Shown: in pieces, positions 9,001 through 15,000 of the stretch
Numbering within the stretch: position 1 is the stretch's first letter
Layout: each line of letters starts with the position of its first letter
Virus record (IMG/VR): IMGVR_UViG_2654588054_000003
Reading direction: 5' to 3' (one strand)
Source: a virus
Lineage: Duplodnaviria; Heunggongvirae; Uroviricota; Caudoviricetes
Length of the DNA stretch: 64,000 nt
Program-made: the position numbers

Positions 9001-12000
9001 CTTTCTGCATTTTTTGCTACTTTCTTAATTGCATATCTATTTCTCCTTTGTTTCCATTCCTGTAACCACTGATTTGGTGCTGGTTTAAAATTAACAATCC
9101 AATGCGCAGGAACCAACCATGCATAATGCTCTGTCTGATGAAAAGCTATATATTGAAGTGCGAATATTTTTATCCCATCTTCTTCAACTGTCGCCTGGAA
9201 TCTCCAGAAAACAGGCATTCCATCATGTTCAGTTTCTGATTCAGGAAAAGGTACGCTCCATGATTTTGTCATATCTCACCTCAAATAAGTGGTTTGCTGC
9301 CTAATTTCATTTTCTGGCGACCAACACAAGTCACCTCGCCGTCAGTTGTTTTGATTTCCGGTAGCCTGCCGCGTAAATGGCTACGTTTGGAAGACATACA
9401 CCAGTTTCTGGTTGCTTATGTCCAAACTCATTCGCGTACACAATGGCCGCTCGCTCCAGATTGCGTCTGTATTCTTTCTGTTGCCAGATCACGTCCTGTG
9501 CCATGAACTTAATTGGCTTAGCGTCTTCTATGCGCTCAGGCGTTTCGTGAGTACCTTTAGCCTGAATCTGCGCTCTGCTTAGAGTAGGGCGGTGTAATAC
9601 TTCTGAACTTATTGCTTCTTCGCGGGCCAGTACGCCGTTAGCTAATGCCTTTGCCTTTAAACGCTCACGACGACGAGAACGTGAATTGCCTTTGAACTGA
9701 GTTCTGCGTGTCATATAGACCTCCTGATGAACTTTGGTGGTGTGGTAGGTGGGAGACCCATTTCGACCTGTTTCGGCCTACTTCAATTCGGCAATAGTCC
9801 CGCAGGCCTCGCCGCTTTACGTGCGACATATTCCCGTCCATGAACCCTTCACCACACCCCAAAGTTCACTTTGGTTATTGCGCTTTGTCAGCGCCGTAGA
9901 TTCATATTCGAATCGTTGTATATTCACCGCCCTGGTGAGTAATGCGTCCTGCTGACGACGATAATAATGAACCAATAGTTCGACATTATCAAGAACTATT
10001 GGTACGAATTTTGGTGATTTATTAACTCTACGAAGTATGATTCTGATATATAAGGAAATTTATTTTTGAAAATGTGGCTGATGAAGGTTATGCGGCAGGG
10101 ATCATAACTGCATGGTTTAGCGAGTTACATCAATAAATACAATTGGTTATGTTTTTTAGGTGGGCGAACGTGAGGCAAAGAAAACCCGGCGCTGAGGCCG
10201 GGCTAGATTTTAAAGTATTTATCTTTTAGAGATGTAGATGTAAAACTTTTCGCCTTTGAAAATTTTTTGTCATCAGAAGGGCTTATGAACTCATCTTTTT
10301 TGTAGGGAACCGCTAATGCTGCATCACGTCTGCGAGGCAGCTTGCTTACTTCCTCGCGCTTTTTCATGATCAGTTATCCTTTAATAACCTATACAGTTTT
10401 GTAGGGGTACATCCTGAGGATATTGTTAAGTTCGTAGCACGCCTTTTCCGCCCATCATCGTATAAACGAAAACCAGTAGTAGACGAATTTTCTGCGTCAA
10501 AAACTATAGACAGTATAGCGTCCCCAGACTTTTTTTGCCATTCGCATGTGCCGTTAGTTGGTTTCGTCATCTGTAGACGCCAGTCAAGAACGCCATCACT
10601 TATAGCTGAGAGATCGTTTAGTACATCTAGTACGGATTGATATCTTTCATTTGGATCTACATGAATGCATTTGTTCACTATTGTTATTAATTTTTTATGT
10701 ATATGGGGAGGATACTCTTTTAATGGATAGCAGCCATTAATTATCGACTCTCTGAGTTGTTCAATCGTGCTAAATGCAGATCTTTCTCTTTCAAAATTAT
10801 CATGTCCAACACACATTCTATATATGGTTAATCCTGCCTGATATATGTCATATGTGAAATTATAATCATTTGTTGATAAAGAAAAATATTCCGGTGGCAC
10901 ATGAAAATGATATCCAAACTCAGGCGCAGCTCTCGATTCCTCATTGACTAACTGAGATAATCCAAAGTCAGATAGCATGGCCTCATTTCTGTTTGATATC
11001 ATAATGTTATTAGGTTTTATATCAAAATGCATAAGACCTTTTGAGTGTATATGATAAAGTCCACTTAAAAATTGAATGGAATACCGTATTATCTCCCTGC
11101 TTGTAAGATTATTTTTTTTCATTAATTGGTTTAGCGAACCATTATGATAAAATGGCATGGCTATATAGATATTGCTCTCACATTGAGCAGCATACTGAAC
11201 TTGCACAATATTTGGATGTGCATGTTTATAGAGAAGCCTTGCTTCATTAAAGTAGTCGTCGTGGTTAGTGTTTTCTTTTTTTTCTATTTCTTTAATCACC
11301 AAGTCATGAGCTAGGTGTCTGTCATGAGCCAGATATACTTTTGAAAAACAACCCTGTTCTTCTAGATCACTAATCCATTCGAATTCTACATCAGCTCTTT
11401 TGTATGGAGTTAGCATCCCCTTACCTCCGCAGATAGTGCAGCCAAAACAGCTTCATTTGTTTCAGTTGTAAAACCAGAATTATCGATTCCATTTATATTG
11501 CGGTGTGACTTCAATATTTCTTTATACTCGATCTCTGTTAGGTTCAATGATGATTTCATGCCAGATTTTCTAATAGTGTAATATTTTCTTACATCACTGC
11601 TTGAAAATGCTTCTTGAATAACAGCTTCTATATAAAGGCGGTCAATGCTAAGATTATCAGAGTTTGATTCAGTAACGCGTATGGCAGCTAATTCAACATT
11701 ATATAAATTAAGAATGTCGAGGATGTTATTTCTCACATATTTTAATTTTTCTGGTGTGTCTAAGGTCGAAGGTATTTTAATAACATCAACACATTTGAGT
11801 GCAGACTCATTAGTGCAATATACAACAAAAGATGTAACTTTGGGCGCCGCTCTAACACCTAGTATTCTCATTTTTTATATCCTATTTTAGAATCAGGCCG
11901 CATCTCTGCGACCATCCATCATCCAAACGTCTCTTCACTCATCCGAAGAAGCAGCAATCCGGGTCAGCACGCACAAGCTCAAGCGCATCAGTCAGCGAAA

Positions 12001-15000
12001 GTTCAGTACTGTACTGATGCCATTTCATATCCTTCCGCATCCAATAGATTTTCCATCTATCCAGAGAACGTATGTACTTGATTCTTGCTGATGGCAGGAT
12101 GTTTGTTTCACCTGGATTGCCCTGCCACACGGGGCGCTGTTCGCCGATATCTATCGTTTGGTCATTGATGCTATAAACAATATCCAGTTCATTGCGGATA
12201 TGTTCAGGCGGCCTTATGCTTTCAATGAATTGGTGAACTTCTTTTTTTACTGCTTGATATTCAAGGTCATTGAACGCCATCTATCCTCCTTACCCAAACG
12301 TCTCTTCAGGCCACTGGTTACCAGCTATGTGACGATGAAGTCACGAACTTTTCAGCCACTCCCTTGCCTCGATGTCATCCAGATGGCGAGATTGCTTCAG
12401 AATACCAGCTACATACTCCACCTTTGCTACTTGATGATAAGGCAACGTTATAGGCCTGTGATCCTGGTTAATGCTTGTAAATTGGTATTCTCCATCTCTG
12501 TCATAGCCAAGAACCTTAATCATGTTGTGTCCTTCAACGGTTCTGACAAACACCTCATCACCCGGGAATACTTTGGTGTTAGGCTCAATGAGTACATATT
12601 CTCCTGATTTTATTCTGGGCCACATGCTGTCTCCTTTCACACGAAGACCAAAGGCATCTGGATCATCGCTATAAATTTTGAGCCACCCATCGCGCTCTTC
12701 GGTCATCTCGATGGCACCATCAACACCAAGAATTGCCTCACCAACCACGCGCACTAACCCTTTTTTTAATTTGCCAACAAATGAAAGAGTATCTTCATCA
12801 TTCGCTCCATTTAACGAAGTGCCGTGCTGAAGCCAAACAACATCAACGTTTAGAAATTTCGCAAGCGCATTCATTTTTTCCTGACGCGGTAAAGACTCAG
12901 CATTAAACCATTTGCTAACGCCTTTGGACGAAAGAGAAAGGGCACGGGCTATAGCCATTCCCCTACCATGTTCATCAAGACCAGCTTCTTTACAGGCTTG
13001 CGCTAGCCGCTGGGCGAATTCTTTGCGCACTTTTTCATTCTGAACCATGAGTACGATACTAAAGCACTTGCAAAAACTTTCAGTTCAACCATAATACGTA
13101 CTGAAAGTACGAAAAAGGATATTCCTATGCAAAATCTTGATGAGCCGATTAAAGGTGTCGGCATCCCTGAAGTTGCGAAGGCTTGTGGAGTTAGCGAAAG
13201 GGCTGTCTATAAGTGGCTCAAAAACGGCTTCCTCCCTAAGACTGAGTTTTTTGGGAAAACTAAATACGCATCAAAAATCGAAGAGATTTCTGGTGGCAAA
13301 TATCAAGCAAGCGAAATGCTTGAAATAAGCAAAAAGAACCTTCTGGCTGCATAAGTAACACCGCTATTTTCACAATGGACATTCGTCCTACGTCGCTGAC
13401 AAAGCGAGTCCCAATATATCTGACCAACTAAGGCTACATGCGTTTCCACGCATACCTTTCAACTAACTATTCACTATTGGAAATCTTAAGAAATGGAACA
13501 AACAAGTTACAGCAAACTATCCCAGCGTGACGTTGATCGCGCAGAAACAGATTTACTCATCAACCTGTCAACGCTTACCCAGCGCGGTCTGGCAAAGATG
13601 ATTGGCTGTCATGAATCGAAGATAAGCAGAACGGACTGGAGATTTATTGCTTCGGTCTTGTGTGCTTTCGGAATGGCATCAGACATCAGTCCGATTAGCA
13701 GGGCTTTTAAGTATGCGCTTGATGGACTCACCAATAAAAAACGCCCGGCGGCAACCGAGCGTTCTGATCAAATACAAATGGAATTTTAACAACATCCAAC
13801 GAGGTAATTATATGCGAAAAACGCAGGAAAATAAACGCGTTAATCACCGAAAAGATGTGCTACGTGACCAGTTTTATCAGGGGGTTAATCCAGCAATAGC
13901 TGTGCCACTGAGAGAAATACTTAACAGGTACAAAACTTCGGAGAAGTCAAAATGAGCATGAATCTTATGGCTAAGGCCATGAATATAAAGGTTGGCAACC
14001 CACTGAGAAAACTGGTTCTGATTAAACTTGCCGATAACGCCAATGATAATGGCGAATGCTGGCCTTCATATCAACATGTCGCTGACCAGTGTGAGGTGAG
14101 CAGATCGACAGTAAAAAGTCACATTAGGGCACTGGAAGATATGGGGCTTTTGAAAAGGGAATTCAGAAGAAAAGGAGAGCTTAACCAGTCAAACGTTTTT
14201 TATCTGACGTTGGATAATGCACAACAAATCCAACCAGAATTAGGTGGGGCAGGAGCTGACCGGGGTGGGGCAGGAGCTGACCTAGGGGGTGGGGCAGGAG
14301 CTGACCCCAGAACCTATCACTCTTTTGAACCAGTCAATGAACCTAAAAACATTAAGTTCGAACGTGTCCGAACGAAGTGCGAAAAATCATCTGACCGTCA
14401 CGAAGAAACCGACAAGGCATTCGAGGAAATATTCTGGTGTGCAGGCATGCGGAAAGCCGGGAAGAAAAACGCAGCTTCGGCATTCAGAACACAGTTCAGG
14501 GAATGGCGTAAAACTACCGGGGGTACGGCAAGCGAGTTTGCCACGATGCTGGCAGAAGACATCGCATGCAGGAATGGTAAGCAGTTCGGATTCGACAGGT
14601 TGTTACCATCGAGCTACCTGAACGGTCAGCGCTGGAACGACGAGAAGCCAGAAACCATTCAACCACAAGCCAGACCATCATCCGCAATCACCGTATCGAA
14701 AACTGGCTACGTGTTTTTCGACAGGTGAACCATGAAATCAAAAATCAAATCGCTACTGGTCGCTGGTTATAACCACGGCTGGTTAAGTATTTCGTTTGTC
14801 GATTTCTGGTTTAAAAATCTCAATCTGAGGGAATCATGACGCCAAGTGAACTTAGCGACCTGCTTTGGGCGCAGGTTGACAGGGTGGCTCCGCACCTGTT
14901 GCCAAACGGCAAGAAAGAGGGGCATGAGTGGGTTGCCGGTAACGTTAACGGTGACAAGGGAAACAGCCTTAAGGTCAACCTTAGCGGCAAGAAAAAATGG

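What the first reader, a model, noticed from the sequence alone, without database searches (positions are those of the whole stretch)
10370..12280. Lysogen-expressed cassette in the rex position: Ser/Thr kinase plus two unknown AT-rich genes
Three minus-strand genes lie between cI and the pL/N region, where lambda carries rexAB, and end at a terminator (10178-10202). One is a Hanks-type Ser/Thr kinase (LVIKEI, HFDIKPNNI, DFG, PPE). From memory, the 933W Stk kinase has been linked to exclusion of phage HK97. The neighbours 11410-11871 and 11939-12280 have no motif I can name and are markedly AT-rich, suggesting horizontally acquired partners (sensor, substrate or antitoxin) of a kinase-based defence.
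Basis: partly seen in the sequence, partly recalled or inferred. Interest (0 to 1): 0.7.

Follow-up and report, generated by a model that had tools for sequence, protein, structure and literature searches.

The report
Known 933W kinase defence cassette
This is the already described repressor-linked operon of Shiga-toxin phage 933W that carries the Stk kinase, which aborts infection by phage HK97. The one new point is that the kinase always travels with a small disabled RuvC-like protein, while the other "unknown" gene is a separate module.

Summary
The window is a 933W-type Stx phage. Window 9900-13200 is 100% identical to phage JLK-2012 and 99.9% to 933W. The finding is the annotated 933W pM operon: cI, L0084, L0083, stk, L0081, terminator tM. 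The literature already describes Stk as a lysogen-expressed kinase that excludes HK97 by abortive infection, so the locus is known.

L0084 is not AT-rich (GC 0.447, like cI). Both "unknown" genes can be named:
- L0084 is DUF3024, which matches the PADLOC candidate PDC-S43.

New here: L0083 and the Stk-type kinase form an obligate pair.
- A kinase homologue follows L0083 in 39 of 39 genome loci, spanning Proteobacteria, Bacteroidota, Clostridia and Acidobacteriota.
- L0083 precedes the kinase in 78 of 78 evaluable viral contigs.
- The genes overlap or abut, and their divergence is correlated (r = 0.93).
- L0083 carries Arg or Lys where RuvC has catalytic Asp7 and Glu66, so it is probably a non-catalytic partner.

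L0084 is independent. It follows CI-type repressors of at least 15 immunity types, including lambda cI, often with other cargo. L0083-stk-L0081 is a swappable AT-rich cassette. The roles of L0083, L0084 and L0081 remain untested.

The parts
12341..13048 (-). cI repressor (HTH_3 + Peptidase_S24), first gene of the pM/pRM operon
   Evidence: Pfam hits. 100% identical at the protein level to 933W cI. Annotated in AF125520.
12294..12308 (.). Copy 1 of an exact 15-nt direct repeat (TGAAGAGACGTTTGG on the coding strand), between the cI stop and the L0084 ribosome-binding site
   Evidence: There are only two copies in 64 kb, against 0.16 expected by chance.
11939..12280 (-). L0084: 113-aa DUF3024 protein (PADLOC candidate PDC-S43). 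A repressor-linked gene that is independent of the kinase.
11923..11937 (.). Copy 2 of the 15-nt direct repeat, starting 1 nt after the L0084 stop
10205..11897 (-). Swappable AT-rich cargo cassette (L0083-stk-L0081). Homology with sister phages that carry other cargo breaks at about 11895-11900 and resumes at about 10205-10210.
   Evidence: blastn of 80 viral loci against the window. Alternative cargo ORFs in the same slot. GC 0.35-0.38.
11410..11871 (-). L0083: 153-aa RuvC-fold protein with Arg at the positions of RuvC Asp7 and Glu66. Obligate upstream partner of the kinase.
10370..11416 (-). stk: 348-aa Hanks-type non-RD (HFD) kinase with a family-specific C-terminal region of about 75 aa (invariant W279, W293). 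Its start overlaps the L0083 stop by 7 nt.
   Evidence: Pfam Pkinase E 2e-46. 100% identical to 933W Stk. Alignment A4. Junction sequence.
10203..10367 (-). L0081: 54-aa basic (pI 10) ORF starting 2 nt after the stk stop. A lineage-specific third gene of the cassette in Enterobacterales.
   Evidence: Present in every viral locus whose Stk is at least 56% identical to the query, and in only 1 of 27 more distant ones. A 38-43% identical homologue sits in the same position in Proteus-type loci.
10183..10204 (-). Intrinsic terminator tM, which ends the lysogenic transcript
   Evidence: Terminator scan. Sequence. Annotated as tM in AF125520. Shared by sister phages that carry different cargo.
9964..9992 (-). 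pL-like promoter (TTGATA-17-CATTAT) flanked by an operator-like inverted repeat. Marks the start of the early leftward operon (nutL, N).
   Evidence: This is a consensus match only. nutL and N are annotated downstream in 933W.

Best explanation
The region is the immunity-region operon of a 933W-type Stx phage. In the lysogen, the maintenance promoter transcribes cI, L0084, L0083, stk and L0081 up to terminator tM.

The functional core is a two-gene unit, L0083 plus Stk, probably translationally coupled. It was acquired horizontally as an AT-rich cassette.

Stk is a catalytically competent non-RD Hanks kinase. According to the literature it is nearly silent in uninfected lysogens. It is switched on by HK97 infection and aborts that infection.

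I infer that L0083, a RuvC-fold protein that has lost two of the four metal-binding carboxylates, is the kinase's non-catalytic partner. It would either hold Stk silent or sense the phage cue, which could be a phage protein or a branched DNA structure.

L0081 is a lineage-specific accessory gene of unknown role. L0084 (DUF3024) is a separate repressor-linked, lysogen-expressed gene that merely shares the transcript.

Shown here: identity, anatomy, fold, residue substitutions, co-occurrence and modularity. Taken from the literature: lysogen expression and HK97 exclusion. Inferred: physical coupling of L0083 and Stk, and the role of L0083.
For: Identity: 100% to JLK-2012 and 99.9% to 933W. The 933W annotation lists cI-L0084-L0083-stk-L0081-tM.

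Literature:
- Stk is activated by HK97 infection and excludes it (PMC3681748, PMC6356687).
- stk expression is under pRM and restricted to lysogeny (PMC3430580).
- L0083 and L0084 correspond to lysogen-restricted spots P2 and P3. The calculated masses of 17096 and 13473 Da match the published 17096 and 13472 Da.
- Genes p22-p25 are co-regulated.

Pairing of L0083 and the kinase:
- 39 of 39 genome loci found with an L0083 profile have an Stk homologue (35-57% identity) immediately downstream.
- 78 of 78 evaluable viral loci found with a kinase profile have L0083 immediately upstream, with a gap of -16 to +15 nt.
- The 150th-ranked family representative is still followed, 1 nt later, by a 347-aa Pkinase gene.
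- There is no third conserved neighbour.
- Pairwise identities of the two proteins correlate at r = 0.93, reached by 0 of 2000 permutations.

L0083 properties:
- The Pfam RuvC HMM and hhalign both place R7 on RuvC D7 and R65 on E66.
- In 75 relatives of 24-42% identity, position 7 is Arg in 74 and position 65 is Arg or Lys in all 75.

Kinase: all catalytic residues are invariant.

Mobile and defence-type context: repressors, integrases, restriction-modification methylases and a Wadjet system are found nearby.
Against: - No experiment or complex prediction here shows that L0083 binds or regulates Stk. Strict synteny fits equally well with L0083 being a substrate or an effector.
- The two primary Stk papers (Tyler & Friedman 2004; Friedman et al. 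2011) are not in the library. I could not check whether stk alone was sufficient for exclusion. If it was, L0083 would be dispensable for that phenotype.
- The sequence alignments to RuvC are weak (Pfam E 0.04, hhalign probability 1.4%). Residue equivalence therefore rests on motif register plus fold.
- E68 and E140 are conserved, so an unusual catalytic site cannot be excluded.
- The MASCOT scores for spots P2 and P3 in the lysogen were not significant.
Confidence: 0.62

Rival explanations
1. Three-component system: L0084, L0083 and Stk act together as sensor, substrate or antitoxin plus kinase.
For: All three are on one lysogenic transcript and are co-regulated. They occur together in 30 of 78 viral L0084 loci that have room for the cassette, and in one Proteus penneri genome locus with a 38% identical L0084.
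Against: L0084 is absent from 38 of 39 genome loci and from 43 of 77 evaluable viral loci that carry L0083-stk. It occurs without them in 48 of 78 loci, followed by unrelated cargo. Its base composition differs from the cassette. It is bracketed by its own 15-nt direct repeat. It follows repressors in prophages with no kinase nearby.
Confidence: 0.06
2. L0083 is an active nuclease effector. Stk senses infection and phosphorylates L0083, which then cuts phage or host DNA.
For: Full-length RuvC fold. E68, E82, E87 and E140 are nearly invariant acidic residues. S91/S92 and Y97 are conserved as possible phospho-acceptors.
Against: The positions of the two RuvC metal ligands D7 and E66 are Arg in 74 of 75 relatives and Arg/Lys in 75 of 75. 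The Pfam RuvC score is below threshold (14.2 against 22.2 bits). Citing papers attribute the exclusion phenotype to kinase activity.
Confidence: 0.12
3. L0083-Stk is a toxin-antitoxin-like pair. L0083 is an inhibitor (antitoxin) of a toxic kinase, and phage infection releases the kinase.
For: A small upstream gene overlaps a larger enzyme gene, as in HipBA-type modules. Stk is reported to be almost inactive until infection. The pairing is strict and the context is mobile.
Against: L0083 has neither a DNA-binding antitoxin fold nor a disordered tail. It is about as conserved as the kinase (69% against 57%, down to 29% against 43% identity), unlike typical fast-evolving antitoxins. This is a sub-case of the best explanation rather than a true alternative.
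Confidence: 0.3
4. The kinase module is not primarily an anti-phage system. Instead it modifies host physiology or virulence of the lysogen, and HK97 exclusion is a side effect.
For: It is carried by Stx phages of pathogenic E. coli, in 225 of 5426 complete genomes. Earlier reviews called its impact on the lysogen unidentified.
Against: The same pair occurs in environmental Bacteroidota, Clostridia, Acinetobacter and marine Gammaproteobacteria. There it sits in prophages and next to restriction-modification and Wadjet genes. No virulence phenotype was seen for stk in EDL933.
Confidence: 0.08

Closest known systems
Phage 933W immunity-region operon cI-L0084-L0083-stk-L0081-tM (Plunkett et al. 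1999 annotation, AF125520) and the Stk abortive-infection phenotype (Friedman et al. 2011, Mol Microbiol 82:567)
   Same: Essentially the same DNA: 99.9% identity over 3.3 kb. Stk, L0083, L0081 and cI are 100% identical at the protein level and L0084 differs by one residue.
   Different: Nothing of substance differs in this region. Elsewhere the window phage differs from 933W, for example in the replication module. The published work that I could reach deals with stk only, not with L0083, L0084 or L0081.
Lambda rexA-rexB
   Same: Same genomic slot, downstream of cI on the pRM transcript and ending at a terminator before pL. Same logic: a lysogen-expressed two-gene abortive-infection module. 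Some phages with lambda cI itself carry L0084-L0083-stk in that slot.
   Different: No sequence or domain similarity. Rex is described as an ion-channel-type system, whereas this module is a protein kinase plus a RuvC-fold protein.
Staphylococcal Stk2 (Depardieu et al. 2016) and the PD-T4-6 single-gene Ser/Thr kinase defence (Vassallo et al. 2022, PMC9519451)
   Same: Hanks-type kinase used for abortive-type phage defence. PADLOC PD-T4-6 models match Stk residues 20-273 (E 1e-37). PADLOC-based surveys label an O157:H7 genome as PD-T4-6 plus PDC-S43, which I take to be this locus.
   Different: The match covers the kinase domain only, and the best PADLOC hit is actually mad6. Those systems are described as single genes. 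The Stk family always has the L0083 partner and its own C-terminal region. No PADLOC model matches L0083.
RuvC Holliday-junction resolvase (PF02075; PDB 4LD0, 6LW3)
   Different: RuvC Asp7 and Glu66 are replaced by Arg or Lys throughout the family. The Pfam score is below the gathering threshold. L0083 is never near ruvAB and is always next to a kinase.
DUF3024 (PF11225) / PADLOC phage-defence candidate PDC-S43
   Same: L0084 is a full-length member.
   Different: No function is known for the family. Here it is shown to sit directly after CI-type repressors of many immunity types.
Phage 434 Hex (PMC3564112)
   Same: A small protein encoded on the pRM transcript with the repressor, as L0084 is (abstract).
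   Different: No homology was tested or claimed. This is only a precedent for repressor-linked accessory genes that modulate induction.

Membership tests
933W Stk lysogen-expressed abortive-infection kinase | Protein identity to 933W Stk | tested here: met
   348 of 348 residues identical by tblastn to AF125520.
933W Stk lysogen-expressed abortive-infection kinase | Position on the cI (pM/pRM) transcript between cI and terminator tM | tested here: met
   Gene order and terminator.
933W Stk lysogen-expressed abortive-infection kinase | Kinase activated by HK97 infection, giving exclusion of HK97 | not testable with these tools
   Known only from the literature cited in PMC3681748 and PMC6356687.
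Hanks-type (eukaryotic-like) protein kinase, PF00069 | Pfam score above the gathering threshold, and catalytic Lys, HxD, N, DFG and APE-type motifs | tested here: met
   158.8 bits against a threshold of 31.7. K42, E58, H130, D132, K134, N137, D150-F151-G152 and P175-E176 are invariant in 30 sequences.
RuvC resolvase (PF02075) | RuvC / RNase H-like fold | tested here: met
RuvC resolvase (PF02075) | Catalytic carboxylates Asp7, Glu66, Asp/His138 and Asp141 | tested here: not met
   R7 in 74 of 75 relatives and R/K65 in 75 of 75 occupy the Asp7 and Glu66 positions. Position 137 is variable. Only E140 (equivalent to Asp141) is kept.
RuvC resolvase (PF02075) | Pfam gathering score | tested here: not met
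   14.2 bits against a threshold of 22.2, E 0.042. No RuvC entry was found by a profile search of PDB sequences.
DUF3024 (PF11225) / PADLOC PDC-S43 | Full-length HMM match above threshold | tested here: met
   108.9 bits against 24.9, covering residues 4-113. PADLOC PDLC05018 E 5e-42.
DUF3024 (PF11225) / PADLOC PDC-S43 | Anti-phage activity | not testable with these tools
   PDC entries are candidates only. No experimental paper was found.
PD-T4-6 single-gene kinase defence | HMM match to PD-T4-6 models | tested here: inconclusive
   E 1e-37, but over the kinase domain only (residues 20-273). The mad6 model scores higher at 6.7e-50.
PD-T4-6 single-gene kinase defence | Stand-alone single-gene architecture | tested here: not met
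   The Stk family always has L0083 upstream: 39 of 39 and 78 of 78 loci.
Lambda RexAB | Homology to RexA or RexB | tested here: not met
   No Rex families appear among the Pfam, PHROG or NCBIfam hits. Only the genomic position is shared.
Type II toxin-antitoxin kinase module (HipBA-like) | Small upstream gene overlapping the kinase gene, with an HTH DNA-binding antitoxin | tested here: inconclusive
   The overlap is present (7 nt). However, the upstream protein has a RuvC fold, not an HTH. Toxicity was not tested.

The most novel reading that the evidence does not exclude
The Stk defence is really a two-protein system that is widespread across bacterial phyla and not catalogued as a pair. A RuvC-fold pseudo-nuclease (the L0083 family, about 445 clusters at 50% identity) serves as the obligate sensor or regulator of a non-RD Hanks kinase. 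L0083 may read branched phage DNA, or a phage protein such as the HK97 trigger, and convert that into kinase activation. Separately, DUF3024 may be a general accessory factor of CI-type repressors rather than a defence gene.
Probability: 0.45. Interest if true: 0.6.

Novelty: already known. Interest (0 to 1): 0.35.

Why it matters
The locus itself adds nothing new. It is the textbook 933W stk moron.

The useful result is a sharper, testable picture of an old open question: how Stk is kept silent in the lysogen and switched on by HK97. The kinase has a universal partner that previous work, as far as I could read it, did not address, and current defence catalogues list the kinase only as a single-gene hit. 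If L0083 is the sensor or inhibitor, the system becomes a tractable two-protein model of kinase-based immunity with homologues in many phyla.

The analysis also separates DUF3024 from the kinase. It shows that the space between the prophage repressor and tM is a cargo hotspot with several unexplored alternative cassettes.

Tried and rejected
- Primary papers. I tried to read Friedman 2011 (PubMed id 21985444) and Tyler & Friedman 2004 (PMC415781). Neither is held, so the HK97 phenotype is cited second-hand.
- Literature search. Searches for a described RuvC-like plus kinase defence pair, for HK97 gp68, for DUF3024 and for PDC-S43 found nothing mechanistic.
- L0083 against PDB sequences. A profile search found no RuvC. 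Only the fold comparison did.
- Conserved third gene. I looked around L0083-stk in 39 genomes and found none.
- Alternative cargo. Proteins in the same slot gave no PADLOC or Pfam assignment, apart from ParA-like ATPases.
- Operators annotated inside L0083 in AP004402. I found no repeat shared with the real operator regions, so I treat that annotation as a pattern match.
- Internal promoters. Promoter-like hits in the region equal the shuffled expectation (10 against 10.5), so none is claimed.
- Rfam. No RNA family was found in 9000-13500.

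
Full report
**What is there.**
ORF listing and Pfam confirm the genes on the minus strand. In transcription order they are: cI (12341-13048, HTH_3 + Peptidase_S24), a 113-aa ORF (11939-12280), a 153-aa ORF (11410-11871), a 348-aa protein kinase (10370-11416, Pkinase E 2e-46) and a 54-aa ORF (10203-10367). N follows further on at 9331-9714.

A strong intrinsic terminator (10204-10183) directly follows the 54-aa ORF. A pL-like promoter flanked by an operator-like inverted repeat lies at 9992-9964.

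However, it missed the fourth ORF, and its statement that both neighbours are AT-rich is half wrong. L0083, stk and L0081 have GC 0.346, 0.354 and 0.376 against a window mean of 0.496. These are the lowest-GC 1.5-kb stretches in all 64 kb. The 113-aa gene has GC 0.447, like cI at 0.452.

**Identity.**
Window 9900-13200 is 100% identical to Escherichia phage JLK-2012 and 99.9% identical to 933W and dozens of Stx1/Stx2 phages.

The 933W record annotates exactly this arrangement: cI, L0084, L0083, stk ('serine/threonine kinase'), L0081 and 'tM; putative terminator for pM transcript'. At the protein level Stk, L0083, L0081 and cI are 100% identical to 933W, and L0084 differs by one residue.

The kinase phenotype is published:
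- Stk is a eukaryote-like tyrosine kinase that has little activity in uninfected cells.
- It is activated by HK97 infection and mediates exclusion by abortive infection. These points come from Friedman et al. 2011, as summarised in PMC3681748 and PMC6356687.
- stk is stated to be under pRM control and expressed only in stable lysogeny (PMC3430580).

I could not obtain the two primary papers.

**Expression of the neighbours.**
Riley et al. 2012 (PMC3342100) found two lysogen-specific 2D-gel spots in a phi24B lysogen. These were P2 (17096 Da, '933W p23') and P3 (13472 Da, '933W p24'). Both are encoded downstream of cI and both have cI-like, lysogen-restricted qPCR profiles.

The calculated masses of L0083 (17096 Da) and L0084 (13473 Da) match them. 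The MASCOT scores were not marked significant, so the protein evidence is weak. A phi24B transcriptome lists 933Wp22-p25 (kinase, RuvC-like, DUF3024, cI) changing together, with log2 fold changes of -1.2 to -1.4 (PMC10789677). The 'lysogen-expressed' part of the finding is therefore supported by the literature.

**What the two 'unknown' genes are.**

The Pfam HMM alignment (residues 3-65 on profile positions 1-64) and an hhalign alignment to E. coli RuvC agree on the register. The N-terminal strand motif ILGVR7 aligns with ILGID7 of RuvC, and AAIR65 aligns with FAIE66.

In 75 diverse relatives (24-42% identity to the query):
- position 7 is Arg in 74;
- position 65 is Arg (59) or Lys (16);
- R47, R78, E82 and E87 are invariant;
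- E68 and E140 are nearly invariant.

So this is a RuvC-fold family in which two of the four metal-binding carboxylates are systematically replaced by basic residues. It fails the RuvC membership test on the catalytic tetrad and is most likely not a Mg-dependent resolvase.

**L0083 and Stk are an obligate pair.**
A scan of one genome per species with the L0083 profile returned 39 loci. They come from Gamma-, Beta- and Alphaproteobacteria, Bacteroidota, Clostridia and an acidobacterial MAG.
- In 39 of 39, an Stk homologue (35-57% identity, 327-355 aa where the ORF is intact) follows on the same strand, overlapping or within a few tens of bases.
- No other neighbour is conserved.
- The reverse test used a kinase profile on viral contigs. 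It gave 78 of 78 evaluable loci with an L0083 homologue immediately upstream, with a gap of -16 to +15 nt, down to 37% kinase identity.
- The 150th-ranked of 445 family representatives is still followed, 1 nt later, by a 347-aa Pkinase gene. Another representative sits beside a Wadjet system.
- Pairwise identities of the two proteins across 32 loci correlate at r = 0.93, reached by none of 2000 label permutations.
- In the window, the L0083 stop overlaps the stk start by 7 nt.

All kinase catalytic residues are invariant. The HRD motif is HFD (a non-RD kinase), and a C-terminal region of about 75 residues with invariant W279 and W293 is specific to the family.

Flanking genes are those of prophages and mobile elements: HTH/S24 repressors, integrases, N6-methylases and phage structural genes.

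**L0084 and L0081 are not part of that core.**
L0084 accompanies L0083-stk in only one of the 39 genome loci. Among 78 viral L0084 loci with room for the cassette, 48 lack L0083-stk. Among 77 evaluable viral stk loci, 43 lack L0084.

DNA comparison shows that sister phages share cI and/or L0084 up to about window 11895-11900. They then carry a different segment of about 1 kb, and homology resumes at about 10205-10210, that is, at tM. The alternative cargoes are:
- a 177-aa protein (16 loci);
- a 162-aa plus 206-aa pair (12 loci);
- two ParA-like ATPases (3 loci each).
All are uncharacterised.

L0084 itself is bracketed by an exact 15-nt direct repeat (12294-12308 and 11923-11937). These are the only two copies in the window, against 0.16 expected.

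In at least 74 of 80 viral loci, the gene directly upstream of L0084 is a CI-type HTH+S24 repressor. These repressors belong to at least 15 sequence types, including lambda cI itself. In Rouxiella and Kluyvera prophages DUF3024 again follows the repressor, twice in tandem in Rouxiella, and other cargo comes after it.

L0081 is present with every enterobacterial Stk of at least 56% identity and with only 1 of 27 more distant ones.

In complete E. coli genomes, the cassette occurs in 225 of 5426 and L0084 in 227 of 5426.

**Mechanism.**
- Shown: operon anatomy, the cassette boundaries, the kinase's intact catalytic site, the RuvC fold with substituted ligands, and strict reciprocal synteny.
- From the literature: lysogen expression, silence of Stk before infection, and activation by and exclusion of HK97.
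- Inferred: L0083 and Stk act as one unit, with L0083 as a non-catalytic regulator or sensor.

L0083 might hold the kinase off until a phage cue arrives, or it might recognise the cue. A RuvC-like dimer lined with conserved Arg residues would be well suited to bind branched DNA or a phosphate-bearing ligand. I put about 0.8 on functional coupling and about 0.45 on the regulator/sensor role specifically.

**Comparison and novelty.**
The locus is already known. It is 933W itself. It works like lambda RexAB in position and logic, and like Stk2 or PD-T4-6 in using a Hanks kinase, but it is homologous to none of them beyond the kinase domain. PADLOC has no model for L0083, and surveys label an O157:H7 genome, most likely at this locus, as single-gene 'PD-T4-6' plus 'PDC-S43'. 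I found no paper that describes the pair.

The pairing and the pseudo-RuvC character of L0083 are therefore a modest new lead inside a known system, not a new system.

**Verdict.**
- Novelty: already known.
- Interest: 0.35.

Noticed in passing
window 14836-17742 (+): A 968-aa primase/helicase-type replication protein (Toprim_2 at 209-296, AAA_25 at 787-849) is interrupted by an intein-like insert (Hint at 379-424, LAGLIDADG_3 at 579-634). 933W has lambda-type O/P genes at this position, so the window phage carries a different replication module.
   Followed up: partly
window 11923-11937 and 12294-12308: An exact 15-nt direct repeat (CCAAACGTCTCTTCA on the + strand) brackets L0084 precisely, one copy after the cI stop and one after the L0084 stop. 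It looks like a module-boundary or recombination sequence. Deletion between the copies would remove L0084 cleanly.
   Followed up: partly
loci L043-L122 (viral contigs), L123, L125: DUF3024 genes sit immediately downstream of CI-type (HTH + S24) prophage repressors of at least 15 different sequence types, including lambda cI. Two copies occur in tandem in a Rouxiella prophage. This suggests a general repressor-linked function rather than a cargo-specific one.
   Followed up: partly
loci L043, L064, L081, L098, L104, L111 (slot equivalent to window 10205-11897): Sister phages carry other, uncharacterised cargo in the slot between L0084 and tM: a 177-aa protein, a 162-aa plus 206-aa (membrane-anchored) pair, and two ParA-like ATPases. 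This looks like a lysogen-expressed cargo hotspot.
   Followed up: partly
PMC3342100, Tables 2 and 3 (phi24B): The paper reports transcripts of the two genes after cI at 10-fold (P2) and 100000-fold (P3) the cI level. That is hard to reconcile with a single pRM transcript. Its Table 3 accession numbers for P2 and P3 also appear swapped relative to the masses in Table 2.
   Followed up: no
window 13952-14728 (+): A 258-aa HTH_36 protein has a short Gly/Ala/Asp-rich repeat (GGAGADRGGAGADLGGGAGAD). It lies between cII and the primase-helicase and is probably a replication-initiation or origin-binding protein of the alternative replication module.
   Followed up: no
L002 3146-3226 (AP004402), equivalent to about window 11545-11625: The Stx2 phage I record annotates a 'maintenance promoter for CI' and three operators inside the L0083 coding sequence. 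No repeat shared with the true operator regions was found there, so this looks like a pattern-match annotation.
   Followed up: yes
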